Of a stretch of 64,000 nucleotides of DNA, positions 8,303 to 34,238 are shown one piece after another; within the stretch, counting starts at the first letter, position 1, and every line of letters starts with the position of its first letter. Source of the stretch: an uncultured Klebsiella sp. (lineage in GTDB: Bacteria > Pseudomonadota > Gammaproteobacteria > Ga0077536); assembly GCA_964555355.1 (NCBI GenBank), contig CAZKRY010000001.1, forward strand, positions 343,177-407,176, read 5' to 3'. The notes below the pieces were generated by a model. The model saw nothing but the letters and a program-made list of their open reading frames with translations, did not search any database and had not been told where the DNA came from. Position numbers and translations under genes: made by a program.

Positions 8303-8312
8303 GGCTCTGACT

Positions 8313-8888: not shown

Positions 8889-8916
8889 AGCGAATAAACG
8901 CGACACCTAGGACACC

Positions 8917-11039: not shown

Positions 11040-11059
11040 GTCGGCGGCGCAGACACACG

Positions 11060-12934: not shown

Positions 12935-12958
12935 CCATGCGAAAGAACGGAATTCGAT

Positions 12959-15081: not shown

Positions 15082-15084
15082 CTC

Positions 15085-16707: not shown

Positions 16708-17546
16708 TGCTGTCTGCGCGAGGGAATTCTGATATGACAGCGAAAAATGAATGGAAAGCGTCCCTTCATTCTTTCTTCGATCAGAGAGGTGGGGAGTTAT
16801 TGTCACATCCTACCTTGCAGGAGTTATGTTACGTGAGCGGTCGCGATCCGCGATTGTGGTCCGATCCCGTAATGTATGGCGATCTGATAAGAAGCATCGT
16901 TGACAGTCTGAGTGTCAGCAAATCGGCTTCGATTCTGGAAGTCGGCTGCGCGGCCGGATTTATCGCCAACGGCGTCGCCCCACTAGTTAAAAACTATATT
17001 GGTATCGACCTCGCGCGGAATGCTCTCGTTGCCGCAGGGAGGCTCGGTCTCCCCAATGCGGTGTTTAAGCATTCAGACGGAAGCTCCGTTCCACTTCAGA
17101 GTAGTTCCGTGGATGCGGCATTTTGTTACGACGTGGTAACCAACTTTCCCTCGTTCGACGACGTCGAGCCTCTAATTGCCGAAATGCTTAGAGTAGTTCG
17201 ACCTGGTGGTAAGGTCATGATTGGTTCCGTGCCGGATGCAGCTTGCCGGGATGAATACGAGCAGCGGATACAAGAGGTGGCAAAAGAACTCGATGCTAAA
17301 TTTGGTCCATCAGTACCACAAGTCAATGGTGTCAAGACGAATTCTCTCCTAAAGGGCGTGATTCGCCATTTATTTCGAAGACCGAGTGCACCGCCGCCGG
17401 CCATCTTTTGCTACTACTTTAGTCGAGCAGACTTTAGGGCGGTTGCGCAGCGTTTCGGGGTACGGTTGGTGTTTGGTGAAATCCACGAGATGAATCCGTA
17501 TCGAGGGCACCGCTTTAACGCAATTTTCCAACGTGTGGGGTCATGA
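16704..17546 (+). CDS. Class I SAM-dependent methyltransferase
   Basis: Motif I ILEVGCAAG, motif post-II VRPGGKVMIG. The GTG/ATG start overlaps the radical-SAM stop (GTGATG). Confidence 0.75.
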   Translation: MMLSARGNSDMTAKNEWKASLHSFFDQRGGELLSHPTLQELCYVSGRDPRLWSDPVMYGDLIRSIVDSLSVSKSASILEVGCAAGFIANGVAPLVKNYIGIDLARNALVAAGRLGLPNAVFKHSDGSSVPLQSSSVDAAFCYDVVTNFPSFDDVEPLIAEMLRVVRPGGKVMIGSVPDAACRDEYEQRIQEVAKELDAKFGPSVPQVNGVKTNSLLKGVIRHLFRRPSAPPPAIFCYYFSRADFRAVAQRFGVRLVFGEIHEMNPYRGHRFNAIFQRVGS

Positions 17547-18667: not shown

Positions 18668-18696
18668 CAGTTAGCACAACTGAGACGATTCGAAGT

Positions 18697-20094
18697 ATGA
18701 ATTCCACCGACCACGACGCGGCGTTGGAACTGCTGAAGCATCTCGCGCGCGTATTCGGTCTCGCCCCAAGCGTGTTCGATTTGCAGCGCGCATGCGTCAT
18801 CCGCGGAAATCTTGCCGCGACGGGCGAAATTTCCCCACGCTGCGAACTCATCGTTCTGCTGGCACCCGATGCCGCGGCCTGTGCACAGCTCGATCTGGTC
18901 GCTTCAGTGCACCCACCGATATCGGATTTGTTTGCGGTCAACGAACGACCCTCGTTGCGCATGTCGTCGCTGCACGGTTATCAAACTTTTGTTGACGATA
19001 AGGGACACTGTCGGCCAGTGGTGCGGGATGCCGCGGGTCGCAACGCATGGATCGAAGTTGAGCAGGGCGGCCGTCGCTGGCTCGTGGTTGGCACAGCGCT
19101 TGTGGCTGACCTCGAACGCTTTCGTCAGGGTGACCCTGCGCGAGCCAACGATCGTTCGCAGAGTGCGAAATGGGATTTTGCGTTCGAGCGCCCGAACTAT
19201 CTGTTCGAGGCCCAGTTGCAGGGGCTCGATGCGCGCGTGCGCCACGCGGACTACTGGTGCGAAACGCTCGTCGGCGCGATTGCCGGCGCCATCCCGACAG
19301 CGCGAAGGCCGATCCTGCCGGGCGATGCACCGGGCGCGCTCGTGATCACCGGCGACGACGATCAGGCTTACCTCGAAAAATATGCGGCACAGCAGGAGGC
19401 GCTTGCAGGACTGCCAATTACCTATCTGATGCATCCGCTGACGCGACATGACCGCCAGAGCGCCAGGCGCATGTTTGGATGTCGACGAGTGGAACTCGGC
19501 ATCCATCCGGACGCGCTCGAGACGCCTTCGGCGTATGGCTCTCGGCTCGATGAACAAGTCCGTTGGTTCGAGTCTCGTTTTGGCTTTAGAGCCACGAGCG
19601 TGCGCAATCACGGCTTTCTCAACGATGGGTATTGGGGACATCTACCCGCTTGGCAGACCGCAGGAATCCATATCAGCTCAAATATTCCGGGCTTGGACGG
19701 TAATTTGTTGAACGCATCAATGTTGCCAGGGCGCGTACTGTTCGATGGCGTCTTGTCATCGCACTGGTCCGTTCTGACGACATTTGGCGACGGCATGGTG
19801 TTCGCGCTTGGCTTATCGGACATGGCGGCGTCGGCGCGCGTCGGCGACAGCGCCGCCGCGATCGTCGCGTCCCGCGTGCCGGGCGTCATCGTCGTAAATC
19901 TCCATCCGCAGAACATTGACAGCACTCGACGGATTCACGATGTCCTGCGCGAGATTGCACAAATGGGCTTTGTAGCGTGGACGCTCGCCGATTGCTGGCG
20001 CTGGTTCAATGAACTTGATCGGCGCGAAACGCCGCGGCCGTTCCTACACCGAGCGGCAGTGACTGCGCGCAGTCTGTTGCGAGTAAGATCGTGA
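18697..20094 (+). CDS. Hypothetical protein; the C-terminal half resembles the polysaccharide deacetylase/CE4-like fold
   Basis: ITGDDD, HPD, RNHG and NLHP motifs are spaced as in NodB-type deacetylases. The N-terminal 200 aa are of unknown function. Confidence 0.35.
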   Translation: MNSTDHDAALELLKHLARVFGLAPSVFDLQRACVIRGNLAATGEISPRCELIVLLAPDAAACAQLDLVASVHPPISDLFAVNERPSLRMSSLHGYQTFVDDKGHCRPVVRDAAGRNAWIEVEQGGRRWLVVGTALVADLERFRQGDPARANDRSQSAKWDFAFERPNYLFEAQLQGLDARVRHADYWCETLVGAIAGAIPTARRPILPGDAPGALVITGDDDQAYLEKYAAQQEALAGLPITYLMHPLTRHDRQSARRMFGCRRVELGIHPDALETPSAYGSRLDEQVRWFESRFGFRATSVRNHGFLNDGYWGHLPAWQTAGIHISSNIPGLDGNLLNASMLPGRVLFDGVLSSHWSVLTTFGDGMVFALGLSDMAASARVGDSAAAIVASRVPGVIVVNLHPQNIDSTRRIHDVLREIAQMGFVAWTLADCWRWFNELDRRETPRPFLHRAAVTARSLLRVRS

Positions 20095-21683
20095 CTTTTG
20101 TTAAGACTGCCACTTTGTCCTGGTCCGCGAACCTGCAAACTGGCTGGCGTAACTATCAATGGCGCAGGCTGAACGGATTGCGCGAAGCGCAACGGTTGGA
20201 GGTGTTGTGGCGCGGTGCTCCACCGGTTGAGCGCTTCGACTCCTGGGACCCGGCTCCATGGCGTCACCCGTGGCTCACTCCGGATAATCTACGCGCAATG
20301 CGCGACTACAGCGAAACGTGCCTCACACGTTGGCAACACGAAGCCGACACGCCTCATGTCGGGCAATCGGAACGCTACGCGTTCATCGGCAACCTCGCGA
20401 ATAACATGTACATGCGTGCGCGTCCGCTGCGCCGGCTTGGCCTCGACATCGACGTCTATTTGCACCCTCAGGATCACTATGTGATGAGCCAACCGGGCTG
20501 GGAGGAATTGCACGGACTGATCGAAAGTTCCGAGACAGATATGCGGCGGTTGCGTGAGCAGGGGGTAACCCTGCCAACGGTGCCTGGAGTCTATCAGTCG
20601 CCAGAGTCCGCACCGATTTCCGCGCAAGAGGCATATCTACGCTACCCGCATTTGTCGGCGCGCGATGTCCTGCGTTGGCTGCCATACCTGAACGGACACG
20701 ACTGGCTGCATGAACTCGCGGGCTACGACGCATTGCTGTGCGCACAGTCAACCTTCGTCGGATTGTTGTCCGGCCAACCGTATGTGGCCGCGCACGTCGG
20801 CGGCGATATCTGGTATGAATGTTCGCGCGGCGACTTACTCGGCAGGCTGCAACTCGAAGCCTATCGTCGCGCTGCGGTAATGCTCGCGTCGAACCCGTGG
20901 AGCTTCGCTCACGCGCGACGCTACGGCTTGTGTAACGCCATCTATGTCCCGCTGGTACTCGACGAAGAGTTCTATGCGCCAGGTCCGAGCCCGTTTCGCC
21001 AGACCTGGATGAACTCGAGCGGTGGCGACTTTTTTGTGTTCAGCGCGGTTCGTCAGAACGATGCGATTAAGGGAACGCTCACCGGACTCGAGGGCTTCGC
21101 GCGTTTCGCAGCGAACCGGCCGGGCGCCAGGCTGGTCATCGTCGAATGGGGCCAGCAGTCCGACCTCAATCTAGAACGGTTCGCAGCACTCGGTATCAGC
21201 GACAAAGTTATCCGTGTGCCGATTGCCGGAAAGCGGCGCGTTGTCGACTACCTGCGTTCGGCCGACTGCTCAATCGACCAGTTTACGCTCGGCTATTACG
21301 GCGCTAGCGCCCTCGAGGCCATGGGTTGCGGCCTGCCTGTCATCATGCGTATCGAACACGCGCAGTACGCCGCATTATGTCGCGCCGGTGCACCGCCGGT
21401 GGTCGAGGCGGCGACAGCCGGAGAAGTTGCCTCGGCGCTTGAACGGTTAAGAGCGAACGTCGATCTTCGTCGCGCCACAGCGAGTGCGCAGCGAGATTGG
21501 TTTGTGGCCGCCCATGGGGCCAAGGCCTGGTATCCGGCGCTCGTGGCGATGTTGCGTGTGACAGCGACTGGGCGTCGGGAGCGCTTCGCGCATTCACCGC
21601 TGCGGATGCGTCTTTCGACGGTAGAACGCGACTATCACACGCAGGGTCTGGCCCGCGCCCCGAAATTTCCAAACTATCAATGA
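20091..21683 (+). CDS. GT-B fold glycosyltransferase (GT4-like), paralog 1 of 3
   Basis: N-terminal IGNLANNMY motif shared with the other two paralogs. C-terminal donor-binding domain (EAMGCGLPVIM). GTGA overlap with the upstream gene. Confidence 0.55.
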   Translation: MTFVKTATLSWSANLQTGWRNYQWRRLNGLREAQRLEVLWRGAPPVERFDSWDPAPWRHPWLTPDNLRAMRDYSETCLTRWQHEADTPHVGQSERYAFIGNLANNMYMRARPLRRLGLDIDVYLHPQDHYVMSQPGWEELHGLIESSETDMRRLREQGVTLPTVPGVYQSPESAPISAQEAYLRYPHLSARDVLRWLPYLNGHDWLHELAGYDALLCAQSTFVGLLSGQPYVAAHVGGDIWYECSRGDLLGRLQLEAYRRAAVMLASNPWSFAHARRYGLCNAIYVPLVLDEEFYAPGPSPFRQTWMNSSGGDFFVFSAVRQNDAIKGTLTGLEGFARFAANRPGARLVIVEWGQQSDLNLERFAALGISDKVIRVPIAGKRRVVDYLRSADCSIDQFTLGYYGASALEAMGCGLPVIMRIEHAQYAALCRAGAPPVVEAATAGEVASALERLRANVDLRRATASAQRDWFVAAHGAKAWYPALVAMLRVTATGRRERFAHSPLRMRLSTVERDYHTQGLARAPKFPNYQ

Positions 21684-22744
21684 GCAGCGAGCTGACTGTC
21701 CGTTACTACCTAGCAGGCGAGCTGCCGATGGCCGAATACGAAGGCTGGCTCGCGAACCGCCGCAACGCGCTGATCTACGCCGCGCCGATGTTCCATCGCT
21801 TCCTCGGTGCGGCGGTTGGTGGTGAGTGTCATTATTTGATCGCGCGGCGCGGAGATTCGCTATGCGGTGCGCTAGCATTTTTTAGACGCGATGTGCTGGG
21901 CATCGGCTGTGTCGTCAACAGTCTACCCTGGTACGGCACACACGGTGCTTGCATTGGTGTCGACGCAGACGATGTCGCTACCCGAGTTTCTCTTATCGGT
22001 ACTTTCCGCGATTACACGCGTGAGGCGCGACCACTGTCATCGACGCTAATCCTCACGCCCGAAGAATCGCTGCACGCTGACGAGTACACAGCGGGCCAAG
22101 CGCACGTCGTTACCGATGGTCGTATTGGACAGTGGACGCGTCTGCCGCAAAGCGGCAGTGCACCTGATCTTGCGGCGACATTGCTGCAGAAAACTCGTAA
22201 CCTCGTCAACAAGTCACTACGCCAAGGCTTTCGCGAAGAAATTGGGGATGAATCAGACGCAGCGTGGGAATTTCTCGGTAACGTGCATGCGGAGAATCTA
22301 CGGGCGATAGGCGGCAAGGCAAAACCATGGGCGCATTTCGAAGCCTTACGTGCTGAGATCCCGCTACCACATCGCCGCTTAACGATCGCCTGGCTCGGCG
22401 ATGAACCCGTTGCCGCACTCCTGCTTCTCGCGTTTAACGAGACAGTGGAATACGTAACTCCGGTGATCCGGGCCGAGTATCGTTCGCAGCAACCGCTGTC
22501 GTTTTTGATCTGGCAAGGCATGCTCTGGGCTATGCAGCAAGGTTTTCGCTGGTGGAACTGGGGCGGTACCTGGAGCACCCAGACGAACCTACTACATTTC
22601 AAGGCGGGTTGGGGCGCGCTCGAACGGCCGTACACTTATGTCATCAGCGCATCGCCGGACGCGCTCACGCAGTTTCGTACGGGGTTCGACGAACTCGCAC
22701 AGGCTTTTCCTTACTACTACCTTTATCCGCACGGTAGTCTTTGA
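21680..22744 (+). CDS. FemAB/BioF2-like GNAT-fold acyltransferase-family protein (second copy)
   Basis: The start is reset to ATG 21680, whose ATGA overlaps the upstream stop; the ORF-track start 21497 would overlap the upstream gene by 190 nt. Similar length and architecture to 17543..18667. Confidence 0.45.
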   Translation: MSSELTVRYYLAGELPMAEYEGWLANRRNALIYAAPMFHRFLGAAVGGECHYLIARRGDSLCGALAFFRRDVLGIGCVVNSLPWYGTHGACIGVDADDVATRVSLIGTFRDYTREARPLSSTLILTPEESLHADEYTAGQAHVVTDGRIGQWTRLPQSGSAPDLAATLLQKTRNLVNKSLRQGFREEIGDESDAAWEFLGNVHAENLRAIGGKAKPWAHFEALRAEIPLPHRRLTIAWLGDEPVAALLLLAFNETVEYVTPVIRAEYRSQQPLSFLIWQGMLWAMQQGFRWWNWGGTWSTQTNLLHFKAGWGALERPYTYVISASPDALTQFRTGFDELAQAFPYYYLYPHGSL

Positions 22745-23799
22745 TGAGCACGATCCCCCACAGTCGCCCAACGCTCGAGCATCACGACATTGAACGTATT
22801 ACTGCGCAATTCGCCTCAGGCATGGTTGCCGAAGGCGAACTGACGGCGGCAGTCGAAGCCCGGTTGGCTCAGCGCTGGCGCATGGTCGCCGCCACCGCGA
22901 CAGGGTCCGGCACGCAAGCGCTTGTTCTCGCGCTCGCCGCGCTCGGTGTCGACAGTAGCGCCGAGGTGATATGCCCGGACTATGTATGCCCGGAGGTGCT
23001 CGCGGCGATCGAGGCGCGTGGAGCCACGCCCGTGCTAGTCGACATTGGCGAAGACTATTTCCCTTCGCGGGACAGCCTCGTGGGTGCGATAACCTCCCGT
23101 ACTGGCGCCATCGTGCTGCCATTTTTGTTTGGGCTCTATAAGCCACTAGACGGTTTGCGGGATCTAGGGGTGCCGTTGATCGCCGATTGCGCGCAGTTTT
23201 TCCCCGCGCAAAATTCCGCGGTCGACGTGGCTGCGGACCTCATCGTGCTTTCCTTCGAGGGCACCAAGTTGTTGACGAGCGGAGAAGGTGGAGCCGTGCT
23301 CGCGGAGAGTGCATCACTTGGCGCGCGAGTCGCCAAGTACAAACGTCTAGACGATGGACCCTACAAGCGAAACCTTTATCCCTTCTCCGATCTGCAGGCA
23401 GCTCTCCTCGACGCGCAGCTCGATCGAATTGACGAATTTCTTGACCGGCGCCATCGGCTCGCGGAGCATTACAAAACTGGGCTACAACTGGCGCCGCATA
23501 TCTCCTGTCCCGGCTGGCTAGCGCCGTACTCCTGCTTCTTTCGGTATCCGTTGCGCATTGAGAACGCGCCCGACGAGTTGGTCGCGCGCCTGATCGAGTT
23601 CTGTGGCGCGCGCGATGTCGCTGTGCGCAGACCTGTAGACACACTGCTGCACAGACTGCGTCCGCAAGCCATGGACTTCCCTGGCGCCGAACGGGCATGG
23701 CGCGAGACGCTGTCGATACCGATTTACCCTGGGCTTGCCGCAACCGAGCAGACCCGGGTCATCGACGTCGTCAACGAAGCATTGGCCGCCTGCGGCTAG
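22744..23799 (+). CDS. DegT/DnrJ/EryC1/StrS-family aminotransferase (short form)
   Basis: PLP-lysine region SFEGTKLLTSGEGG. ATG 22744 overlaps the upstream stop (tgATGa). Confidence 0.7.
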   Translation: MSTIPHSRPTLEHHDIERITAQFASGMVAEGELTAAVEARLAQRWRMVAATATGSGTQALVLALAALGVDSSAEVICPDYVCPEVLAAIEARGATPVLVDIGEDYFPSRDSLVGAITSRTGAIVLPFLFGLYKPLDGLRDLGVPLIADCAQFFPAQNSAVDVAADLIVLSFEGTKLLTSGEGGAVLAESASLGARVAKYKRLDDGPYKRNLYPFSDLQAALLDAQLDRIDEFLDRRHRLAEHYKTGLQLAPHISCPGWLAPYSCFFRYPLRIENAPDELVARLIEFCGARDVAVRRPVDTLLHRLRPQAMDFPGAERAWRETLSIPIYPGLAATEQTRVIDVVNEALAACG

Positions 23800-23808
23800 G
23801 AGGACCTA

Positions 23809-24807
23809 TTGGACGAACCAATACGAGTCGAACAGCTGCGAAAGGATTCTCGTCTGGAGCACCGTCTCGCGGAGGTGAACGCGCTGCTGGCTCCCGTCGA
23901 GGAAAAGTTGCAACACGAGATTGCTGCGGTCGAGCCTCCGTTGGTATTCGTCGTCGGTATGGCGCGGTCAGGCACGACGCTCGCCGGTCAGCTCTTGGCG
24001 AGCGCTGGGTTTGGTTATGTTAGTAATTTCGTGGCCCGCTTCTGGCGTGCACCCGCACTCGGCGCGACTTTGCAACGCACGGTGTTGAAGGTTGGAGACG
24101 CACTGAGCAGTAGCTTCCAGTCACACCATGGGGTGACGGATGGTTGGTTCGAACCGCACGAGTTCGGGTATTTCTGGGACCGCTGGTTCGATCTGGGGCA
24201 GGCCACGCACAAGCTTGATGTCGAACTGCGTTCGCGTGTCGATCGGGAGGGCCTCCATCGCGCGGTGAGTGCGCTACAGCAGGTGGAAGGGCGTCCCTTT
24301 ACCTTTAAGAACAATACGTGGTGCAGCCTACAGGCAAGTTGGTTGGCAAACCTTTTCCCGCGTTCGATCTTCGTGGTGTGTCGTCGTCCGGCGTGCTGGA
24401 TCGCGCAGTCGCTGTGCCTCGCGCGCGAGGAACGTTATGGCAGCCGCGATAGCTGGTGGTCGATCCGCCCGAGTACCTACGCGTCGTTCGTCGGGTTGCC
24501 GTGGTGGGAGCAGATCGCCGCACAGGTCATCGATTTCGACATTGAGATGGATGCCGAACTGACGCAGATCCCGTCCAGTAGGCTCATCGAAATCGAGTAT
24601 GGCGATTTATGTGCCAACCCTCGCGGGCTTATTGCACGGACCGCCTCGCAACTCCTGGGCATGGGGATACAATTCACCCCGGTGTCCGAACGAATTCCCG
24701 AACGACTCGCGTCGCGTGATACCCAGCGGCTCGTCGATGCAGACTGGCGGCGACTTAACGACGCAATTGAACAGCGGGCACAGTCCCGTCAGCGCAAGGT
24801 GACTTGA
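23809..24807 (+). CDS. Sulfotransferase-family protein (PAPS-dependent)
   Basis: 5'-PSB P-loop-like motif VVGMARSGTT near residue 45, and a downstream RxxxxS-type region; ~330 aa. Confidence 0.6.
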   Translation: MDEPIRVEQLRKDSRLEHRLAEVNALLAPVEEKLQHEIAAVEPPLVFVVGMARSGTTLAGQLLASAGFGYVSNFVARFWRAPALGATLQRTVLKVGDALSSSFQSHHGVTDGWFEPHEFGYFWDRWFDLGQATHKLDVELRSRVDREGLHRAVSALQQVEGRPFTFKNNTWCSLQASWLANLFPRSIFVVCRRPACWIAQSLCLAREERYGSRDSWWSIRPSTYASFVGLPWWEQIAAQVIDFDIEMDAELTQIPSSRLIEIEYGDLCANPRGLIARTASQLLGMGIQFTPVSERIPERLASRDTQRLVDADWRRLNDAIEQRAQSRQRKVT

Positions 24808-25955
24808 TCATGCAGATAACTTTTCCCTCCTTCGACGAGGCCGAAATTTCGGCGCTGCGCGAATGCCTCGGCAGCGGCTGGGTGACCCAGGGTCCGATGG
24901 TGGCGCGCTTCGAAAAGCTCATCGCCGAATTTCATCAGGTTCAACATGCGCTCGCCACCACCTCCTGTACCGCCGCCTTGCATCTTGCGACCGCCGCGCT
25001 GCAACTGAGCCGCGGCGACGAGGTGCTGGTTCCGGCTTTCACGTGGGTGACCTCCGCGCATTGTGCAGAGTACATGGGCGCACGGGCTTGTTTCGTGGAC
25101 GTCGATCCGAACACGTTCAACTTAGACCCAGTCGCGCTCGAGGCCGCAATCACGCCCCGATCGCGCGCGATTGTCGCGGTGCATTTGTTCGGGCTGGCGG
25201 CGCCGATGGACGAGATCATGGCCATTGCGAAGCGCCACGGACTCGCCGTGATCGAGGACGCGGCCTGTGCGATCGGAACGCGCTACCAAGGCAAGCCCAT
25301 TGGCGGCATCGGGGACTTCGGATGTTTCTCGTTTCATCCGCGCAAGGTGGTGACGACAGGCGAAGGCGGCATGGTGACGACCAACAACGCGGAGTACGCC
25401 CGACGCGTCCAAAGTCTGCGTAACCATGGCGCAACCGGTCTGCCGCCGGTAACTGAAGCAGAGCCACATGGCCCATGGACCATGGCGCGATTTGAGATGC
25501 TCGGGTTCAACCTCCGACTGTCGGATATCCAAGCCGCCGTTGGTGTCGCCCAAATGGCGAAGCTCGAAACCCTATTAGCCGAACGTAAGGCCGCGGCGGT
25601 CCATTACTCATCCATGCTCGAAAATATCGATGAGTTGGCTGTCCCCGACACACTCGCGCTCGACGGGCATACCTACCAGTCTTACGTCGTTCGCGTGTTG
25701 AAGGGCGGTCGTGTGCGCCGCAATCGATTGATGGCCGCACTCGACGCAGCGGGGATCCAGACACGTCCCGGCACGCATGCCGTGCACCGTCTTGATTATT
25801 ATGCCCGCAAGTACGAGTTAGCTCCGGAGGCATATCCGAACGCCGCACTATGCGAGGACACCACTATCACGCTGCCAATCTTCCCCGGCATGCAGGAGAG
25901 GGATCGAGAATCTGTCGTGGCTTGCATAAGAGACGGCTTGGTTAAATCGAATTGA
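24804..25955 (+). CDS. DegT/DnrJ/EryC1/StrS-family PLP aminotransferase
   Basis: Typical DegT fold with PLP lysine (FSFHPRKVVTTGEGG). The TTG 24804 start overlaps the upstream stop; an alternative ATG is at 24810. Confidence 0.8.
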   Translation: MIMQITFPSFDEAEISALRECLGSGWVTQGPMVARFEKLIAEFHQVQHALATTSCTAALHLATAALQLSRGDEVLVPAFTWVTSAHCAEYMGARACFVDVDPNTFNLDPVALEAAITPRSRAIVAVHLFGLAAPMDEIMAIAKRHGLAVIEDAACAIGTRYQGKPIGGIGDFGCFSFHPRKVVTTGEGGMVTTNNAEYARRVQSLRNHGATGLPPVTEAEPHGPWTMARFEMLGFNLRLSDIQAAVGVAQMAKLETLLAERKAAAVHYSSMLENIDELAVPDTLALDGHTYQSYVVRVLKGGRVRRNRLMAALDAAGIQTRPGTHAVHRLDYYARKYELAPEAYPNAALCEDTTITLPIFPGMQERDRESVVACIRDGLVKSN

Positions 25956-25965
25956 GTCAGTTCGG

Positions 25966-27636
25966 ATGACTGAAGACGCCGCCGTCGAGACGCCGTACGC
26001 CTTCCATTGGGTCCAGGACTTCATTGGCCGACACGGTCGTAAGCCCCGCATTCTACACATCGGCAACATCGCGAATAACGCGTTCATCAACTGCAAGTTG
26101 TTGAACGCCGCCGGACTGGACTGCGATCTCATCTGTTACGACTACTACCATCTCATGGGCTGTCCGGAGTGGGAGGAAGCGGACATCGACGTAGTGCCGG
26201 AAGACCAGGCGTTTCCGGATTGGACCAAAATTGACCTACGGGGCTATCAACGCCCGCGCTGGTTCGTTCAAGGTCCGTTGAGTCTATGCATCGACTATTT
26301 GTTGGCGCGCCGACAGGGGCGTCGGGTTGCCGAGATTTGCCGCTGGCGAGAACTTGCGCGCTTCAATCACACACAGACTGCAGCCATGGAGCCAATCGAT
26401 CGTGCACTGGCACTATCGGAATGGTCACTCGGAGCTCCTGGCCAATTTTGGCGCGGGACGATATCGCTTTGTGTACGGGTGGCGCAGCGCGCCCGCCGGA
26501 TGGCATGCTTAGTTGCGAGGCATCTGCGCCGCCTATCGAGAGACGCCTTGTTGGCGTCACCATTGAGATCGCTGAAGCGATGGATCGTCGCGGTCGAAGC
26601 AAGCGTGTTTCGAGCCAGTCGTGCATTTCGCGTCAAGGCTCAACTCCACCGTTCGCTGGACGTAGAAAGCATCTGCACGCGTTTCGGGGGCTACTTTCCG
26701 AACCGCGCGGACCAATTACAGCCAGCGGAACTCGACCCCTATTTACAAACGATCCCGCGCTGGAGCGCGCTTTTTGATCACTACGATCTGATCCAAGCTT
26801 ATGCAACCGACCCCTTACTTCCCGCGCTCACCGGGCATCGCGCGGTTGCTTTCGAGCACGGCACGTTGCGCACCTTTTTGTGGGGCGACACGTCACTGCA
26901 TCGACTTACGTCGCTTGGATACCGGCACGCCGCGCATGTCTTTGTGACCAACGGCGATTGCCTCGAACACGCAGTGCGCCTCGGTGTGCCGAGCTATAGC
27001 GCGATGTTGCATCCGGTTGATGTTGATCAGCATCGTACAGCTGGGCTAGAACTGTCGGCGACGATTCGCGAAGAGTACGCGGCGGACTGTCTTTTGCTCT
27101 GTCCGCTCCGGCACGATTGGGCCATCAAGGGCACGGACATCCATCTCCGCGCTCTGCCGTTGATCAAGGCCCGATACAATGGGCGATTAGTTGTGCTCCT
27201 GACGGAATGGGGTGCGGACCTCGCCGCGAGCAAAGCGCTCGTGCGCGAACTCGGCTGCGAGCAGAACGTACGTTGGATCGCGCCGCTAGGGCGCATCCGG
27301 CTAATCGCGCATACGCGCGCCGCCGACGTCGTTCTCGACCAAATCGCGCTACCGCACTTCGGGGCGACGGCGCCGCAGTCACTGGCGGTCGGCACGCCGG
27401 TCGTCAGCAGCTACGATCCACGCAGTACGGAGTGGATAGTCGATGAGCCGGCGCCCATTTTGCCGGCCTTCAATCCAGAGGAAGTCGCGGAGGCCGTGCT
27501 GACCGCCATGGATCCTGCTTGGCGTATCGAACACGCTCGGCGCGCACGGCAGTGGATTGATCATCATCATCATCACCGGCGGGTGGTCGCAGACCATCTC
27601 AAAATCTATGAACGGCTCATTAAGGCCACGGAGTAA
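25966..27636 (+). CDS. GT-B fold glycosyltransferase (GT4-like), paralog 2 of 3
   Basis: N-terminal RILHIGNIANNAF...CDLICYDYYHLMGCPEWEE motif. C-terminal GT-B domain (TEWGADL...VGTPVVS). His-rich C-terminal tail HHHHHRR. Confidence 0.55.
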   Translation: MTEDAAVETPYAFHWVQDFIGRHGRKPRILHIGNIANNAFINCKLLNAAGLDCDLICYDYYHLMGCPEWEEADIDVVPEDQAFPDWTKIDLRGYQRPRWFVQGPLSLCIDYLLARRQGRRVAEICRWRELARFNHTQTAAMEPIDRALALSEWSLGAPGQFWRGTISLCVRVAQRARRMACLVARHLRRLSRDALLASPLRSLKRWIVAVEASVFRASRAFRVKAQLHRSLDVESICTRFGGYFPNRADQLQPAELDPYLQTIPRWSALFDHYDLIQAYATDPLLPALTGHRAVAFEHGTLRTFLWGDTSLHRLTSLGYRHAAHVFVTNGDCLEHAVRLGVPSYSAMLHPVDVDQHRTAGLELSATIREEYAADCLLLCPLRHDWAIKGTDIHLRALPLIKARYNGRLVVLLTEWGADLAASKALVRELGCEQNVRWIAPLGRIRLIAHTRAADVVLDQIALPHFGATAPQSLAVGTPVVSSYDPRSTEWIVDEPAPILPAFNPEEVAEAVLTAMDPAWRIEHARRARQWIDHHHHHRRVVADHLKIYERLIKATE

Positions 27637-27641
27637 TTGGC

Positions 27642-28433
27642 ATGTCCATTACCGACGACGCACAACTGCTTAAAGAGCGTTACGAGAGTATCGCGCTCAG
27701 CTTAGACGACAAGACCACCGCATCCGACTATCTGCTGCGGGAACTCGAAATCGATCTCGGCGCCCAATACATGCACCCCGATCAGCAGGTTCTCGATGTC
27801 GGCTGTGGCTTGGGTTACGCGCTCCGTCAGTACGCGCAGCGCTGCAAGGTATCCGGCGTCGGTCTCGATTACGCCGAGAACATGGTCAAGTCGGCGCACC
27901 AGCGGGTTGTGGACACGATGCCCGACGCGCCGATCGAATTTGTGCATGGTTCGGTCGCGGACATGCCGCTTGATAGCGGGCGCTTTGATGTCGTCACCAG
28001 TCATCGCTGCCTGATGGCATTGCTCGATTGGGACCTCCAACGCGCAGCGTTGCGAGATATACATCGCGTCCTAAAGCCGGGCGGCATCCTCGTACTCATG
28101 GAAGGGACGCTCGACGGCCTTGAACGCCTTAACTTCTATCGCCGGCTGTTTGGTCTAGCGGAAATCGAAGCGGACGGACGTGATCGCCTACTGACGCGCA
28201 AGTTCCGCGAGAAAGCGTTGCTGGATGAAGTCGGGACTGGGTTTGAACTGCTACGCACCCAACGCTTCGGGATGTACTACTTCCTGACGCGCATTGTGCA
28301 ACCGCTGTTCGTCGCGCCGGACGCCCCGCGTTACGACCACAAGCTCAATGAAATCGCGCATCGTATCGCCAAAGCCATCCCCGATCTTGACGGCATCGGT
28401 CACCTGGTCGGCTTTGTGCTGCGGAAGCGGTAG
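27642..28433 (+). CDS. Class I SAM-dependent methyltransferase
   Basis: Motif I VLDVGCGLGY, motif II LKPGGILVLME. Confidence 0.75.
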   Translation: MSITDDAQLLKERYESIALSLDDKTTASDYLLRELEIDLGAQYMHPDQQVLDVGCGLGYALRQYAQRCKVSGVGLDYAENMVKSAHQRVVDTMPDAPIEFVHGSVADMPLDSGRFDVVTSHRCLMALLDWDLQRAALRDIHRVLKPGGILVLMEGTLDGLERLNFYRRLFGLAEIEADGRDRLLTRKFREKALLDEVGTGFELLRTQRFGMYYFLTRIVQPLFVAPDAPRYDHKLNEIAHRIAKAIPDLDGIGHLVGFVLRKR

Positions 28434-28440
28434 TCCGCGC

Positions 28441-29151
28441 ATGATCTGCCTGAGCTTAGATACGGATCACATGAGCGAGGCGCGCATGCGTGACTTTCTC
28501 GCTGAATTCACGTTGCCGGGCCAAGCCACATTTTTCTGCACCGGAGCGTACGACTCCCTGGCCGCTACGGATCACGAGTTGTGTCCGCATCCGTATCTTG
28601 GGCCGAGCAACGATTGGAACGAGGAGCTTGCGTCGATGCGACGAATGTTTCCGGCCGCCCGCGGCTGGCGCTCGCATTCCTGTGTATTCAGCCACACGCT
28701 CGCGGAGCAGGTTGCCAGCCTTGGTTATGCCTACGCAAGCACCCAGGATGATCTCGGCTGCGCGAACCTGCGTCCGCATCGGCACGCGTGGGGTCTGTGG
28801 CAAATGCCCATCTATTACATGGACAACCTCGACTTCTCCCATTCACGATTCTGGCGAGACTCATCACACCGCCCGTTCGACCAGACGGTTATCGACACCG
28901 CCCTGCGTGGCGATGCCCTGTATATCTTCGATTTCCATCCGATCCATTTAATGCTGAATAGCCATTCCGCGGAGTCGTATTTCGTGCGGCGAGATGCGTT
29001 CAAAGGCGGTGCGGACATTGCGAGCCTGCGCTGTCCGGAGCCTGGGGTGCGGGATTTTTTCTTGAATCTGATCGATGCGATGGCGCGGGCGGGAATGCGG
29101 AGTTACGCGCTGCGCGAAGCGCTTGACGTCCATATTGCGCGCGGCTGCTGA
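28441..29151 (+). CDS. Putative polysaccharide deacetylase (CE4)-like protein
   Basis: The start is set at ATG 28441; the ORF-track start 28294 overlaps the upstream gene. SLDTDH, CPHPY and FHPIHL motifs are spaced like CE4 motifs 1, 2 and 5. Confidence 0.35.
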   Translation: MICLSLDTDHMSEARMRDFLAEFTLPGQATFFCTGAYDSLAATDHELCPHPYLGPSNDWNEELASMRRMFPAARGWRSHSCVFSHTLAEQVASLGYAYASTQDDLGCANLRPHRHAWGLWQMPIYYMDNLDFSHSRFWRDSSHRPFDQTVIDTALRGDALYIFDFHPIHLMLNSHSAESYFVRRDAFKGGADIASLRCPEPGVRDFFLNLIDAMARAGMRSYALREALDVHIARGC

Positions 29152-29175
29152 ACGAATGAGCAAGGACAGCATGGA

Positions 29176-30978
29176 ATGAACGCGACGGTTGGCGTTGAGA
29201 CGGGAATCGTGGTCAAGACAGACGATACGCCGTTCGATCCCGAGGCTTGGGTAAGCGCCTTTTCGGCACGCCATGGTCGTCGTCCGCGCGTGCTGCATAT
29301 CGGCAACATCGCCGCAAACGCCTACAACAACGCGAAAATGATGAACACGCTCGGCTTCGAGTGCGAAGTGTTGTGCGCAGACTACTATCACATGATGGGT
29401 TGTCCCGAGTGGGAGGACGCGGACTTTGAGGGCGATATCGGTGATCACTTCGCGCCCACTTGGTTTAAAGTCAATCTCCGCGGTTACGAGCGGCCTCGAT
29501 GGTTCGCTCAAGGGCCGCTTGAATTGTGCCTACGTTATTTGGGCGCCCGCGCAGCGGGGCGCCAACGTGAAGCGGATTATCTCTGGCGCGCGCTCGGAGT
29601 TTTTAATCGTACGCGCGCGCCGGGGCCGCTCGAATCCTTGCAGAGCACGCTTTATCAGAGTCGTCAATTAGCACGCCGTATAGCCGCTGTCCTAGATTCT
29701 CCGGTGCGCCGTGCACGGGTCATCGCGCGGCTAGAAGAAATCGGGACGCGTTGGCGCCATCAGTGGCGAAGACGCCACGCGCTGGCAGCATCGATGGGCG
29801 CCGTGCGCAATCTGAGTCGCGCCATCGCCGGAAACGCTTTGCTGCTCATCGCAGCAGTGCTTCGCGCCTGTTTTACCTACTTGCCTGGAGGGCGGAACGC
29901 GCGAGAAGTATCGACTGCCGGCGAGAATGCGAGTGCGCAGCTTGCGGCGATGCTTTGCGATGACTTCAAACGACGTTTTCCTTCTCGAACCGATACCCTT
30001 GTTGTCACTGATGTGGCCGCGTACGCCTCGAATATGCCTTCATGGCAGGAAGTCTTTGCCTCGTATGACTTAGTCCAAGGATATGCGACCGATCCGATTT
30101 TTCCGATGTTGACCGGTCATCCCTACTGCGCTTTCGAACATGGAACTTTGCGCGAATTACCGTTTCGCAACGACGCGCTTGGCAGAATGACCGCGTTAGC
30201 CTATGCGCGCGCACAGCAAGTATTTGTCACTAACTCCGATTGCATCGATAACGCCCACCTTCTCGCCGGTTCGCGCGCGATACCTTTACCACACCCGTTC
30301 GACGAAGATCGCGCTGTTCGCGTGATTGGAGCGGACGCGCTTCGCACAAGCCTAAAGGCCGAACTTAATGTCGACATCCTCGCTTTTTTCCCGACTCGTC
30401 ACGATTGGGTAGTGGGCACGGGTTTCGCCGACAAAGCGAACGATCGTTTTTTCCAAGCCCTGGCGCGACTTCATCGCGACGGCTTCCGTGTTGGGGTTGT
30501 TTGCTGCGAATGGGGACGCAACGTCGTCGAAAGCAAGGCGTTGATTCGCGACCTAGGGCTTGAGAATTGCGTGAAGTGGGTTGCGCCGATGGGCGTCGTG
30601 CGTTACGAGCGCCACGTGCTCGCGTGTGATTTTGTCGTTGATCAATTCTTGCTCGGCGCGTTCGGCGGCGTCACTTTTCGTGCGCTGGCCGCCGGTCGAC
30701 CGGTGCTGACCTGGCTACGTTCGGACGAAGTCGCACGAAGCTTTGGCACGTGTCCGCCAATAATCAACTGTCAGTCGACAGAGGATATCGTTCAAGCATT
30801 GGGCCGAGCATTAAGTGTCGCCGGAGAATTACAACGCATCGGCGCTGACGCGCGGCGCTGGGTTGAGCGATACCACAGCGGGCGCGCTACGGTTACCACG
30901 CAATTACGCGCATACGCACGAATAATTGAGGAGTCACGATCATCGGAAAACTTGTCGCCGAAGAGGATGTTGAGGTGA
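29176..30978 (+). CDS. GT-B fold glycosyltransferase (GT4-like), paralog 3 of 3
   Basis: The RVLHIGNIAANAYNNAK...CEVLCADYYHMMGCPEWED N-terminal motif is near-identical to that of paralog 2. C-terminal GT-B domain. Confidence 0.55.
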   Translation: MNATVGVETGIVVKTDDTPFDPEAWVSAFSARHGRRPRVLHIGNIAANAYNNAKMMNTLGFECEVLCADYYHMMGCPEWEDADFEGDIGDHFAPTWFKVNLRGYERPRWFAQGPLELCLRYLGARAAGRQREADYLWRALGVFNRTRAPGPLESLQSTLYQSRQLARRIAAVLDSPVRRARVIARLEEIGTRWRHQWRRRHALAASMGAVRNLSRAIAGNALLLIAAVLRACFTYLPGGRNAREVSTAGENASAQLAAMLCDDFKRRFPSRTDTLVVTDVAAYASNMPSWQEVFASYDLVQGYATDPIFPMLTGHPYCAFEHGTLRELPFRNDALGRMTALAYARAQQVFVTNSDCIDNAHLLAGSRAIPLPHPFDEDRAVRVIGADALRTSLKAELNVDILAFFPTRHDWVVGTGFADKANDRFFQALARLHRDGFRVGVVCCEWGRNVVESKALIRDLGLENCVKWVAPMGVVRYERHVLACDFVVDQFLLGAFGGVTFRALAAGRPVLTWLRSDEVARSFGTCPPIINCQSTEDIVQALGRALSVAGELQRIGADARRWVERYHSGRATVTTQLRAYARIIEESRSSENLSPKRMLR

Positions 30979-31859
30979 AGCGAGTAATGGTCGTTGGCGC
31001 CCAGGGATATCTTGGGCGGGCCTTTTGTCGAGTAGCGAGCGCCCGAGGACTACAAGTGTTCGCGGCCAGTTCTCGTGATGGAACAGGTCTCAATCCAACG
31101 ACCGGACTGGTGAGTGACGGCTTTGCGATACCGCCAAATACCGACACGGTTCTTTATCTCGCGCAATCGCCTTACTACCGCCATGTGCCGCAATATGCGG
31201 CGCATCTTATGACGGTCAATAGCGTTAGCGCCGTTGAGGTGGCGCGTCTCGCGACCGAAGCGGGCGTACGCCGCTTCATCTACGCCTCCACCGGCAGTGT
31301 TTACGAACCCAAATTTACGCCGCTCGCCGAAACAGCGCCGCTGTTGGAGACCGCATGGTATCCGTTGTCGAAAATTCTCGCCGAGAAGGCGCTCGCGTTG
31401 TTCAGACCCGCGCTCGATGTTTGTGCCGTACGCATTTTTGGAATTTACGGCCCCATGCAACAAGACAAGCTCGTGCCGAATCTTGTCAATCGATTGCGCG
31501 AAAATCAACCGGTGATTCTTCAGGCAAACCCCACAAATCCCGCTGATCGCGGCGGGCTGCGAATCTCGCTGTGCCATATCGACGACGCGTGCCAGGTGCT
31601 ACTGCAACTAATCGCGATCGCCGGACAATTACCGCACATTCTCAACCTTGGCGGCGATGAGGCAGTCGATCTGCGCACGCTGGCGACGCTGCTTTCGCGT
31701 CGACTTGGGGTCGCGGCAACCTTTACCGAAACCGATATCGAGCGGCATGGTGATCTCGTATGCGATGGAAGCTTGCTTGCATCGTTAGTAAAACCTGAAT
31801 TCAGGCCCATTGCAGAAGGCTTGCAGTATGTAGTCGATCCGCGCGAGGGTCGAGATTGA
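30975..31859 (+). CDS. NAD-dependent epimerase/dehydratase-family protein (SDR)
   Basis: VVGAQGYLG Rossmann motif and YxxxK (YPLSKILAE). GTGA overlap with the upstream gene; an alternative ATG is at 30987. Confidence 0.7.
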   Translation: MKRVMVVGAQGYLGRAFCRVASARGLQVFAASSRDGTGLNPTTGLVSDGFAIPPNTDTVLYLAQSPYYRHVPQYAAHLMTVNSVSAVEVARLATEAGVRRFIYASTGSVYEPKFTPLAETAPLLETAWYPLSKILAEKALALFRPALDVCAVRIFGIYGPMQQDKLVPNLVNRLRENQPVILQANPTNPADRGGLRISLCHIDDACQVLLQLIAIAGQLPHILNLGGDEAVDLRTLATLLSRRLGVAATFTETDIERHGDLVCDGSLLASLVKPEFRPIAEGLQYVVDPREGRD

Positions 31860-34199: not shown

Positions 34200-34238
34200 A
34201 AATCACGAAGCTATCGATAAGCATTGGAATAAAACATT

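What the first reader, a model, noticed from the sequence alone, without database searches (positions are those of the whole stretch)
20091..30978. Three diverged paralogous large (530-600 aa) GT-B glycosyltransferase-like proteins sharing an unusual N-terminal motif
ORFs 20091..21683, 25966..27636 and 29176..30978 share an N-terminal HIGN(I/L)ANNxY…(D/E)YYH(L/M)MGCPEWE(E/D) region and a C-terminal GT4-like donor-binding domain.
- Paralogs 2 and 3 keep a Cys-x3-Cys-x5-His-x3-Cys arrangement (CDLICYDYYHLMGC; CEVLCADYYHMMGC) that paralog 1 lacks. This may be a metal site or a recent duplication.
- Paralog 2 ends in an HHHHHRR tract.
- Each paralog is interleaved with a tailoring gene (FemAB-like; methyltransferase and deacetylase; epimerase). 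This looks like a modular 'transferase plus modifier' organisation.
Basis: seen in the sequence. Interest (0 to 1): 0.5.

Follow-up and report, generated by a model that had tools for sequence, protein, structure and literature searches.

The report
Three old GT4-like glycosyltransferase paralogs
The three large proteins are real, anciently diverged members of a widespread but uncharacterised branch of GT4-like sugar transferases that sit in an ABC-transporter surface-polysaccharide gene cluster, most likely building a Bordetella-type polymer of diamino-uronic-acid sugars; the proposed zinc site and recent duplication are not supported.

Summary
The three ORFs (20091-21683, 25966-27636, 29176-30978, + strand) exist and are homologous. 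P2/P3 share 37% identity (E 5e-110). P1 is distant (E 3e-14), but its N-terminal motif alone scores E 4e-7, and a profile-profile comparison gives E 7e-73.

AlphaFold models of P2 (pLDDT 89) and P1 (pLDDT 95) are GT-B folds. Their closest solved structures are retaining GT4 enzymes: MshA, BshA, PimA and HepE.

The "unusual" N-terminal motif is the first beta-alpha-beta of the acceptor domain. It is the signature of a family of about 1,000 clusters at 50% identity, found in more than ten phyla and unnamed in NCBIfam.

- **Cysteines:** not conserved. About 58% of family members carry A/S/T at one or more of the three positions, and two of the Cys lie on one beta-strand. A family-wide Zn site is unlikely.
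- **Duplication:** ancient. Each paralog has closer cross-phylum orthologues than the paralogs have to each other.
- **Departures from GT4:** the first Glu of EX7E is Pro/Gly, and P2/P3 carry a roughly 130-aa cationic helical insert.
- **Context:** a wlbA/B/C-like operon with a 4-epimerase, AsnB amidotransferases and Wzm/Wzt points to a 2,3-diacetamido-uronamide polymer.

Two to three family members occur in 33 of 80 related loci. This is an ordinary kind of gene in an uncharacterised subfamily, of moderate interest.

The parts
20091..21683 (+). P1: 530-aa P1-type family member. GT-B fold with a roughly 95-aa helical, Trp-rich N-terminal extension and no helical insert. It keeps the second Glu of EX7E.
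25966..27636 (+). P2: 556-aa P2-type family member. GT-B fold with a cationic helical insert. EX7E positions are Pro463 and Gln471. His-rich stretch at residues 533-537.
   Evidence: (pLDDT 89.3).
29176..30978 (+). P3: 600-aa P3-type family member. Below Pfam thresholds. EX7E positions are Gly and Arg. Its insert contains a hydrophobic 19-mer (Kyte-Doolittle 1.86).
26047..26178 (+). P2 N-terminal signature (residues 28-71): RILHIGNIANNAF...DCDLICYDYYHLMGCPEWEE. This is beta1, a loop, alpha1, beta2 and a loop of the acceptor domain.
   Evidence: DSSP of the model gives E28-32, H35-48, E52-58 and H67-71. G33, N34, N38, H62, P67, W69 and E70 are near-invariant in 241 family sequences.
29287..29418 (+). 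P3 N-terminal signature (residues 38-81): VLHIGNIAANAY...ECEVLCADYYHMMGCPEWED.
20376..20507 (+). P1 degenerate N-terminal signature (residues 96-139): YAFIGNLANNMY...DIDVYLHPQDHYVMSQPGWEE. It has no Cys.
   Evidence: HSP E 4e-7.
26278..26685 (+). P2 helical insert in the N-domain (residues about 105-240). Net charge +16. The long helices 139-155, 158-197 and 203-224 are modelled with lower confidence.
   Evidence: Family median: 133 aa, net charge +13, against -7 for the rest of the protein.
29518..29961 (+). P3 helical insert (residues about 115-262). Net charge +13. It contains AIAGNALLLIAAVLRACFTYL.
7238..10023 (+). WlbA/WbpB-like dehydrogenase, WlbB/WbpD-like N-acetyltransferase and WbpE-like aminotransferase. 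Together these form the UDP-GlcNAc3NAcA pathway.
   Evidence: PDB sequence matches: 3q2i E 1.7e-170, 3mqg E 1.4e-99, WbpE 3nyu E 1.5e-145. Pfam hits.
10044..12934 (+). Epi0 (a WbpP/WbgU-like 4-epimerase-type SDR) and AsnB0 (a glutamine amidotransferase). This pair is the most conserved partner of the GT family.
   Evidence: phmmer scores of 450-610 and 900-1150 bits across phyla.
12959..15081 (+). Wzm-like ABC-2 permease and Wzt ATPase with a weak Wzt_C carbohydrate-binding domain.
   Evidence: The homologues in L083-L085 carry PF01061 and PF14524.
15085..20094 (+). Radical SAM protein, methyltransferase MT1, FemAB-like Fem1 and an unknown 465-aa protein (U465). This is the upstream part of the P1 module.
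   Evidence: MT1-Fem1-U465-P1 recurs in L001, L003, L084 and L085.
21680..25955 (+). FemAB-like Fem2, DegT1, sulfotransferase and DegT2 (closest to C4-aminotransferases). These are tailoring genes linked to P1-type GTs.
   Evidence: perosamine synthetase and ArnB, E 7e-77. DegT2 is present in 22/22 loci that have a P1-type gene. ATGA overlap with P1.
27642..29151 (+). SAM methyltransferase MT2 and a WbmS-like protein, the conserved downstream partners of P2-type GTs.
   Evidence: P2 is followed by MT2 in 15/33 cases.
30975..36194 (+). SDR 'Epi' (294 aa, GTGA overlap with P3), two canonical GT4 enzymes with intact EX7E, and a second AsnB-type amidotransferase. This is the end of the cluster.

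Best explanation
P1, P2 and P3 are three anciently diverged paralogs of one uncharacterised subfamily of GT4-like, probably retaining, nucleotide-sugar-dependent GT-B glycosyltransferases.

They are co-transcribed in an ABC-transporter (Wzm/Wzt)-dependent surface-polysaccharide operon. The operon's precursor genes are WlbA/B/C-like enzymes, a 4-epimerase-type SDR and two AsnB amidotransferases. These should make UDP-2,3-diacetamido-2,3-dideoxy-hexuronic acid and its amide, the building block of the Bordetella O polysaccharide.

Inferred mechanism:
- On the cytoplasmic face of the inner membrane, two canonical GT4 enzymes build the primer or adaptor on undecaprenyl-PP.
- The P2/P3-type enzymes are held at the membrane by their cationic, partly hydrophobic helical insert. 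They add the diacetamido-uronamide-type residues that make up the chain, one linkage or sugar type per paralog.
- P1 has no insert. It is always linked to a C4-aminotransferase-like gene and often to FemAB-like, sulfotransferase and U465 genes. It adds a differently tailored 4-amino sugar, most simply a non-reducing-end cap (or a side residue) that the Wzt carbohydrate-binding domain could read.
- Replacement of the first EX7E Glu by Pro/Gly, with an invariant D-x3-D-Q just upstream, is read as an adaptation of the donor pocket to sugars that carry N-acyl groups instead of hydroxyls.

Shown here: homology, fold, family signature, gene context and co-occurrence. Inferred: donor identity, division of labour between the paralogs, role of the insert, and stereochemistry.
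For: - Homology.
- Donor-binding residues: the Arg/Lys pair is conserved in 238/241 family sequences and aligns with the R...K of a canonical GT4.
- Precursor genes: 3q2i E 2e-170, 3mqg E 1e-99, WbpE E 1e-145, WbpP/WbgU-like epimerase, AsnB.
- Co-occurrence in 80 loci from many phyla: AsnB-like 54, the 294-aa SDR 54, Wzm/Wzt 42. Many contigs are truncated.
- Minimal clusters hold one family member plus small GT4s, for example L009, L027 and L052.
- P1-type linkage: DegT2 22/22, Fem 13/22, Sulfo 12/22, U465 11/22, against 12/58, 2/58, 3/58 and 2/58 in loci without a P1-type gene. The same holds in three loci found independently through P1.
- DegT2 is closest to the C4-aminotransferases perosamine synthetase and ArnB.
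- Insert: median 133 aa, net charge +13 against -7 for the rest of the protein. In 35% of members it has a 19-mer with Kyte-Doolittle score of at least 1.6. It is absent in P1-type proteins.
- Overlapping stop/start codons tie the genes together.
- The Bordetella O polysaccharide is a GalNAc3NAcA(N) homopolymer with a 2,3,4-triamino cap, amidotransferases and an ABC transporter (PMC2615507).
Against: - No member of the family has been characterised, and no product structure is known for any host genome.
- Homology to the Bordetella GTs (WbmA/B/D) could not be tested.
- WlbA/B/C-like genes were seen within 10 kb in only 14/80 loci, although they lie upstream of the flank in the usual gene order.
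- The first EX7E Glu, important in studied GT4 enzymes, is missing in all three paralogs. P3 also lacks the second Glu and falls below Pfam thresholds.
- The cap role for P1 rests on analogy only. DegT2-type genes also occur without a P1-type gene (12/58).
- The loci were collected by similarity to P2, so the co-occurrence counts are not an unbiased sample.
Confidence: 0.6

Rival explanations
1. There is no cap/polymerase split. The three paralogs each make one linkage of a trisaccharide (or more complex) repeating unit, acting in strict alternation as in other ABC-transporter-dependent heteropolymers.
For: Loci with 2 (25/80) or 3 (8/80) family members are common. Each paralog has its own set of neighbouring tailoring genes. 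The same three types occur together in a cyanobacterium (L008) and in a gammaproteobacterial MAG (L002).
Against: P1-type proteins lack the insert that all P2/P3-type members have. Among the loci seen, P1-type genes were found only together with a P2/P3-type gene, whereas P2/P3-type genes are often the sole member. Wzt carries a Wzt_C-like domain, which in known systems reads a terminal cap.
Confidence: 0.25
2. One reading: P2 and P3 carry a structural or regulatory Cys3His zinc site (C-x3-C-x4-H-x3-C) that P1 lost.
For: The full CCHC pattern is present in 90 of about 213 family members, and the three Cys co-occur more often than independence predicts (about 49 expected). A three-ligand site (C57/H62/C66) in a subclade cannot be excluded without coordinates.
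Against: Orthologues with the same gene context have ACHT, ASHT, ACHC and similar patterns; Ala/Ser/Thr replacements are typical of small buried residues. H62 is invariant whether or not the Cys are present. C53 and C57 both lie in strand E52-58 of the model, four residues apart, too far apart for one metal ion (geometric inference, distances not measured). The co-occurrence can be explained by shared ancestry.
Confidence: 0.07
3. The three genes are recent local duplicates still diverging, and one or more (especially P3) is a catalytically dead scaffold.
For: P3 is below Pfam thresholds and has Gly/Arg at the EX7E positions. All three lie within 11 kb.
Against: P2/P3 are 37% identical and P1/P2 about 27%, while each has 42-50% identical orthologues in other phyla. 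The whole triplet is syntenic in a relative at 70-81% identity. P3 keeps the near-invariant R, K and D-x3-D-Q. P3-type is the commonest type and often the only family member in a cluster.
Confidence: 0.05

Closest known systems
Retaining GT4 glycosyltransferases with solved structures (MshA 3c4q, BshA 6n1x/3mbo, PimA 2gej, HepE 4xsu, PglH 6eji, WaaG 8b5s)
   Same: Two-Rossmann-domain GT-B fold. A C-terminal donor domain matching Pfam Glycos_transf_1, with the conserved Arg...Lys pair. A C-terminal helix that crosses back to the N-domain.
   Different: 11-20% identity. The N-domain is not recognised by any Pfam GT4 N-terminal model. A GN(I/L)ANN loop replaces the usual Gly-rich loop. The first Glu of EX7E is Pro or Gly in 229/236 family sequences, and the second is Q/E/K/R. 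P2/P3-type proteins have a roughly 130-aa cationic helical insert, and P1-type proteins a roughly 95-aa N-terminal extension.
Bordetella bronchiseptica/parapertussis wbm O-antigen system (poly-L-GalNAc3NAcA(N) with a 2,3,4-triamino cap; putative GT WbmB)
   Same: The gene repertoire matches: WlbA/B/C-type precursor enzymes, SDR epimerases, several AsnB-type amidotransferases, a WbmS-like protein, an ABC transporter and tailoring enzymes that could decorate a cap (PMC2615507).
   Different: Whether WbmA/B/D belong to this GT family was not tested, because no sequences were available. This cluster adds FemAB-like, sulfotransferase, radical-SAM and U465 genes. The host is a different, unidentified organism whose closest relative is a 'Hydrogenophaga' MAG.
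Multi-GT polymerase/terminator systems of ABC-transporter-dependent O-antigens (E. coli O9a WbdA/WbdD, Klebsiella/Raoultella WbbB)
   Same: Several GT modules plus methyltransferase-type modifiers in one Wzm/Wzt operon. Wzt has a C-terminal carbohydrate-binding domain. Long helices are attached to the GT. Family members elsewhere are fused to methyltransferases. The comparison with these systems rests on general knowledge.
   Different: Here the GT modules are separate proteins of one paralogous family. No kinase or coiled-coil terminator protein was recognised. The function of the helical insert is untested.

Membership tests
GT-B fold / CAZy GT4-like (Pfam Glycos_transf_1, PF00534) | Two Rossmann-like domains (GT-B) with closest structural neighbours in GT4 | tested here: met
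GT-B fold / CAZy GT4-like (Pfam Glycos_transf_1, PF00534) | Score above Pfam's gathering threshold for PF00534 or PF13692 | tested here: inconclusive
   P1 scores 29.3 and 29.6 bits, and P2 scores 28.3 and 30.0 bits, against cut-offs of 26.4 and 27; both are just above. P3 has no PF00534 hit, and its PF13692 score of 16.5 is below 27. Most P3-type homologues carry no precomputed Pfam domain.
GT-B fold / CAZy GT4-like (Pfam Glycos_transf_1, PF00534) | EX7E motif in the C-terminal domain | tested here: not met
   hhalign against the window's own canonical GT4 places Pro463 and Gln471 of P2 on the two Glu positions. Across the family, position 463 is P in 164, G in 65 and E in 3 sequences; position 471 is Q in 100, E in 93, K in 35 and R in 7. 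P1 has G...E and P3 has G...R.
GT-B fold / CAZy GT4-like (Pfam Glycos_transf_1, PF00534) | Arg/Lys pair that binds the nucleotide diphosphate | tested here: met
   R382 and K388 (P2 numbering) are present in 238/241 family sequences and align with the R...K of the canonical GT4.
GT-B fold / CAZy GT4-like (Pfam Glycos_transf_1, PF00534) | N-terminal domain recognised by the GT4 N-domain models (PF13439, PF13579) | tested here: not met
   None of the three proteins hits these models at E <= 1, while the neighbouring canonical GT4 (32892-34199) hits both.
GT-B fold / CAZy GT4-like (Pfam Glycos_transf_1, PF00534) | CAZy/dbCAN family assignment; retaining stereochemistry | not testable with these tools
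   dbCAN is not available here, and stereochemistry needs enzymology.
Cys3His zinc-binding site | All four ligands conserved among orthologues | tested here: not met
   The CCHC pattern is found in 90 of about 213 sequences. The rest are ACHT, ASHT, ACHC and others, and P1-type proteins have none.
Cys3His zinc-binding site | Ligands close enough in space to bind one metal ion | tested here: inconclusive
   DSSP of the model puts C53 and C57 in one strand (E52-58), four residues apart. H62 and C66 are in the following loop.
Bordetella wbm-type diacetamido-uronic acid O-polysaccharide system | WlbA/WlbB/WlbC (WbpB/D/E) precursor enzymes | tested here: met
   3q2i E 1.7e-170; 3mqg E 1.4e-99; WbpE 3nyu E 1.5e-145.
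Bordetella wbm-type diacetamido-uronic acid O-polysaccharide system | AsnB-type amidotransferases, SDR epimerases, Wzm/Wzt exporter and a WbmS-like protein | tested here: met
   Pfam hits. WbmS-like PF22537 at E 1e-16, and WbmS 3hft at E 1.6e-4. WbmF 2pzj matches Epi0 at E 1e-25, but WbpP/WbgU-type 4-epimerases score better.
Bordetella wbm-type diacetamido-uronic acid O-polysaccharide system | Glycosyltransferases homologous to WbmA/WbmB/WbmD | not tested
   No Bordetella Wbm GT sequence could be obtained. The original description of the locus (PMC96651) is not held.
Bordetella wbm-type diacetamido-uronic acid O-polysaccharide system | Product is a poly-2,3-diacetamido-2,3-dideoxy-hexuronic acid/amide | not testable with these tools
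   This needs chemical analysis of the polysaccharide.

The most novel reading that the evidence does not exclude
The family is the so far unidentified chain-building glycosyltransferase for poly-(2,3-diacetamido-2,3-dideoxy-hexuronamide) surface glycans, the Bordetella O-antigen type. On this reading it has spread with a highly conserved epimerase-amidotransferase-Wzm/Wzt cassette across more than ten bacterial phyla, including cyanobacteria, Planctomycetota, Bradyrhizobium and CPR lineages. It would use a modified GT4 active site (Pro/Gly in place of the first EX7E Glu, plus an invariant D-x3-D-Q) adapted to N-acylated donors. Its cationic helical insert would serve as a membrane anchor and perhaps a chain-length device.
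Probability: 0.3. Interest if true: 0.5.

Novelty: new variant of a known kind. Interest (0 to 1): 0.35.

Why it matters
If the assignment holds, it names the enzyme family that polymerises a class of highly modified diamino-uronic acid surface polymers. These are known chemically from Bordetella, where the O antigen is a virulence and immune-evasion factor, but their glycosyltransferases have never been characterised.

It also shows that the same biosynthetic cassette is widespread in environmental bacteria.

The family gives a natural test of what the first EX7E glutamate does in GT4 enzymes, since here it is systematically Pro/Gly.

For genome annotation, P3-type members currently fall below Pfam thresholds and are often labelled hypothetical. 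A dedicated family model would fix that.

As a finding in this window it is otherwise ordinary: glycosyltransferase paralogs in a polysaccharide operon.

Tried and rejected
- **Zinc site:** rejected as a family feature on conservation and secondary-structure grounds. Model coordinates are not exposed, so no distances could be measured.
- **Recent duplication:** rejected.
- **His tract as a C-terminal tag or metal tail:** it is an expansion around the near-invariant His535, 19 residues from the end.
- **Looking for a characterised member:** NCBIfam gives only weak sub-threshold hits to generic GT4 equivalogs. A PDB sequence search gives only MshA and sucrose-phosphate synthase at E about 1e-3. 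Source names are only 'glycosyltransferase' or 'hypothetical'.
- **Literature searches:** searches for WbmS, the wbm locus and diacetamido homopolymers found no paper on these GTs. The Bordetella papers read call wbmB only a 'putative glycosyl transferase'.
- **Unavailable resources:** the original wbm paper is not held. The AFDB50 fold library was not available.
- **Source organism:** could not be identified. An exact look-up shows only an unnamed NCBI contig of 410 kb. There are no tRNA genes in the window.
- **U465:** gave no Pfam, NCBIfam or PDB match.


Full report
**Observation**

The window carries three + strand ORFs at 20091-21683 (P1, 530 aa, GTG start), 25966-27636 (P2, 556 aa) and 29176-30978 (P3, 600 aa).

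They are homologous far beyond chance:
- P2 vs P3 gives BLASTP E 5e-110, 37% identity over the full length.
- P1 vs P2 gives E 3e-14 for the C-terminal domain, plus a separate HSP over the N-terminal motif (E 4e-7, 39% over 49 residues).
- A profile-profile comparison of alignments built around P1 (A3) and around P2/P3 (A2) gives probability 100% and E 6.9e-73. The alignment runs from the N-terminal motif to the C-terminus.

- P1 has only a degenerate form of the motif (FIGNLANNMY...DHYVMSQPGWEE).
- The Cys/His spacing is C-x3-C-x4-H-x3-C.
- The His run of P2 covers residues 533-537 of 556. It surrounds a family-wide, near-invariant W530...H535 (H in 229 of 236 aligned sequences), so it is not a terminal tail.
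- Four tailoring genes, not one, lie between P1 and P2.

**What the proteins are**

Pfam sees only the C-terminal donor domain. Glycos_transf_1 and Glyco_trans_1_4 score just above threshold in P1 and P2 and below threshold in P3. No GT4 N-domain model hits any of the three. NCBIfam has no model for them.

The AlphaFold2 models are confident: P2 has pLDDT 89.3 and pTM 0.85, and P1 has pLDDT 94.6 and pTM 0.92. Both are GT-B folds, and their nearest solved structures are retaining GT4 enzymes:
- P2 (Foldseek): MshA, sucrose-phosphate synthase, BshA, HepE and PimA.

The 'unusual N-terminal motif' maps to beta1 (RILHI), a GNIANN loop, alpha1, beta2 (DCDLICY) and the loop and helix carrying YYH...PEWEE. 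This is the first beta-alpha-beta of the acceptor domain.

**The family**

P2 has more than 800 scored homologues, P3 more than 700 and P1 about 180. Most are full-length at 40-50% identity, come from metagenomes, and are named only 'glycosyltransferase' or 'hypothetical protein'.

An exhaustive HMM search of 1.84 billion 50%-identity representatives finds 1,021 clusters at E <= 1e-30.

A scan of species-representative genomes confirmed 192 relatives. They occur in Proteobacteria, cyanobacteria (Nostoc, Anabaena, Pseudanabaena, Tumidithrix), Planctomycetota, Bradyrhizobium, Legionella, Francisella, Mariprofundus, Myxococcota, Actinomycetota, Chloroflexota, Firmicutes-type MAGs and CPR lineages.

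In 241 family sequences:
- G33, N34, N38, H62, P67, W69, E70, R382, K388, D458, Q459 and G466 (P2 numbering) are near-invariant.
- The R...K pair aligns with that of the window's own canonical GT4.
- The EX7E motif is not kept. The first Glu position is Pro (164) or Gly (65), and Glu in only 3 sequences. The second is Q/E/K/R.

P2/P3-type members have an insert in the N-domain with a median length of 133 aa. Its median net charge is +13, against -7 for the rest of the protein. In 35% of members, P3 included, it has a hydrophobic 19-mer with a Kyte-Doolittle score of at least 1.6. P1-type members lack the insert and instead have a roughly 95-residue helical N-terminal extension.

A single transmembrane pass inside a GT-B domain is topologically impossible. 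The insert is therefore best read as a monotopic or in-plane membrane anchor; this is an inference.

**The zinc and duplication ideas**

The three Cys occur together in only 90 of about 213 members. Orthologues in the same gene context carry ACHT, ASHT, ACHC and similar patterns, while H62 is invariant regardless. C53 and C57 lie in one strand of the model.

A family-wide Cys3His metal site is therefore not supported. A subclade-specific three-ligand site cannot be excluded, because coordinates could not be inspected.

The paralogs are old. Each is closer to cross-phylum orthologues (42-50% identity) than to its neighbours in the window (27-37%). The same P1/P2/P3 triplet with the same partner genes occurs in a syntenic 'Hydrogenophaga' MAG (70-81% identity), in a gammaproteobacterial MAG and in the cyanobacterium Tumidithrix.

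**Context**

The three genes sit in one tightly packed + strand operon from about 7.2 to 36.2 kb. Stop and start codons overlap at U465/P1, P1/Fem2, P3/Epi and Epi/GT4a.

Upstream genes:
- A WlbA-like dehydrogenase (PDB 3q2i, E 1.7e-170), a WlbB-like acetyltransferase (3mqg, E 1.4e-99) and a WbpE-like aminotransferase (E 1.5e-145). From established knowledge of the wlb/wbp pathway, these make UDP-GlcNAc3NAcA.
- A WbpP/WbgU-like 4-epimerase-type SDR and an AsnB-type amidotransferase.
- Wzm, and Wzt with a weak Wzt_C domain.
- A radical SAM protein, a methyltransferase, a FemAB-like protein and an unknown 465-aa protein.

Genes after each paralog:
- After P1: FemAB-like, DegT, sulfotransferase, and a DegT closest to C4-aminotransferases (perosamine synthetase and ArnB, E 7e-77).
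- After P2: a methyltransferase and a WbmS-like protein.
- After P3: an SDR, two canonical GT4s and a second AsnB.

This repertoire mirrors the Bordetella wbm system. Its product is a GalNAc3NAcA(N) homopolymer capped by a 2,3,4-triamino-galacturonamide derivative, and its putative GT gene wbmB is required for O antigen (PMC2615507).

**Conservation of the arrangement**

In 80 related loci, many of them truncated, I scored the window's proteins against all ORFs:
- AsnB-like genes occur in 54 loci, the 294-aa SDR in 54 and Wzm/Wzt in 42.
- 25 loci have two family members and 8 have three.
- P2-type genes are followed by the same methyltransferase in 15/33 cases.
- P3-type genes are followed by the SDR, directly or after a small GT, in 42/66 cases.
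- P1-type genes co-occur with the DegT2 type in 22/22 loci (12/58 in loci without P1). They co-occur with FemAB-like genes in 13/22, the sulfotransferase in 12/22 and U465 in 11/22; the figures without P1 are 2/58, 3/58 and 2/58.

Three loci retrieved independently through P1 homologues show the same order: Epi0-AsnB0-Wzm-Wzt-(MT-Fem-U465)-P1...DegT2-P3type-SDR.

Elsewhere the family is fused to methyltransferase, radical-SAM/SPASM, formyltransferase or canonical GT4 domains.

**Most likely mechanism**

The following is inferred, except where a call is cited.
- Two canonical GT4s prime or adapt the lipid-linked acceptor.
- P2/P3-type enzymes, held at the membrane by the cationic insert, add the diacetamido-uronamide-type residues of the chain. 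Clusters with a single family member (for example L009, L027 and L052) would make a homopolymer.
- P1, which has no insert, adds a differently tailored 4-amino sugar. The simplest reading is the non-reducing cap read by Wzt. One linkage of a heteropolymer repeat is the main rival.
- The Pro/Gly at the first EX7E position may make room for N-acyl groups on the donor.

None of these substrate assignments was tested.

**Comparison and novelty**

The proteins work like GT4 enzymes and have their fold. However, they fail two family hallmarks tested here, the EX7E motif and a recognisable GT4 N-domain, and P3 fails the Pfam threshold. They are best described as a distinct, uncharacterised GT4-like subfamily, a new variant of a known kind.

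Membership of the Bordetella GTs in this family, and the CAZy assignment, remain untested.

**Verdict**

The finding is real. Its more exotic readings (zinc site, recent duplication) do not hold. Interest is moderate, at 0.35.

Noticed in passing
window 18697-20094 (+): A 465-aa protein (U465) with no Pfam, NCBIfam or PDB sequence match. It is translationally coupled to P1 (GTGA overlap). It is conserved next to P1-type GTs in 11/22 loci that have one, and in L084 and L085. Its function is unknown.
   Followed up: partly
window 10044-12934 (+): The epimerase-type SDR and the AsnB-type amidotransferase are far better conserved across phyla than the glycosyltransferases. phmmer scores are about 450-610 and 900-1150 bits in cyanobacteria, Zetaproteobacteria, Thermodesulfobacteriota and others. 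This suggests a strongly constrained precursor-making pair that travels with the GT family.
   Followed up: partly
window 12001-18000: G+C drops to about 0.50-0.52 over Wzm, Wzt, the radical-SAM gene and the first methyltransferase, against about 0.60 in the rest of the cluster. The radical-SAM gene (15085-16707) is absent from the closest syntenic relative (L001). The cluster looks mosaic.
   Followed up: no
P0264, P0269, P0342, P0354, P0357, P0384, P0261 (homologues): In other genomes, family members are fused to SAM-methyltransferase, radical-SAM/SPASM, formyltransferase or canonical GT4 domains.
   Followed up: partly
window 17543-18667 and 21680-22744 (+): Two FemAB-like (Acetyltransf_6) genes in a polysaccharide operon. 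They may aminoacylate an amino sugar. The best NCBIfam hit is the PEP-CTERM-associated FemAB family, far below its cut-off.
   Followed up: no
window 23809-24807 (+): A Sulfotransfer_3 family gene lies between two DegT aminotransferases and recurs with P1-type GTs (12/22 loci). It hints at a sulfated or sulfamidated sugar.
   Followed up: no
L041, L051, L068, L069, L016, L071: The family also occurs in lineages without an outer membrane or LPS: Saccharibacteria, Berkelbacteria, Oscillospiraceae, Bifidobacteriaceae and Actinomycetota MAGs. Its product is therefore not necessarily an O antigen. Some NCBI organism labels of the MAGs (for example 'Bordetella parapertussis' and 'Hydrogenophaga intermedia') look unreliable.
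   Followed up: no
window 36691-63502: The cluster ends at 36194. The rest of the window holds unrelated genes: MscS channel, PhyH dioxygenase, molybdopterin oxidoreductase, hybrid histidine kinase, sigma-54 activator, P450, CoA-transferase, two luciferase-like monooxygenases, an acyl-CoA ligase and a 1212-aa adenylate cyclase-AAA_16 protein.
   Followed up: no
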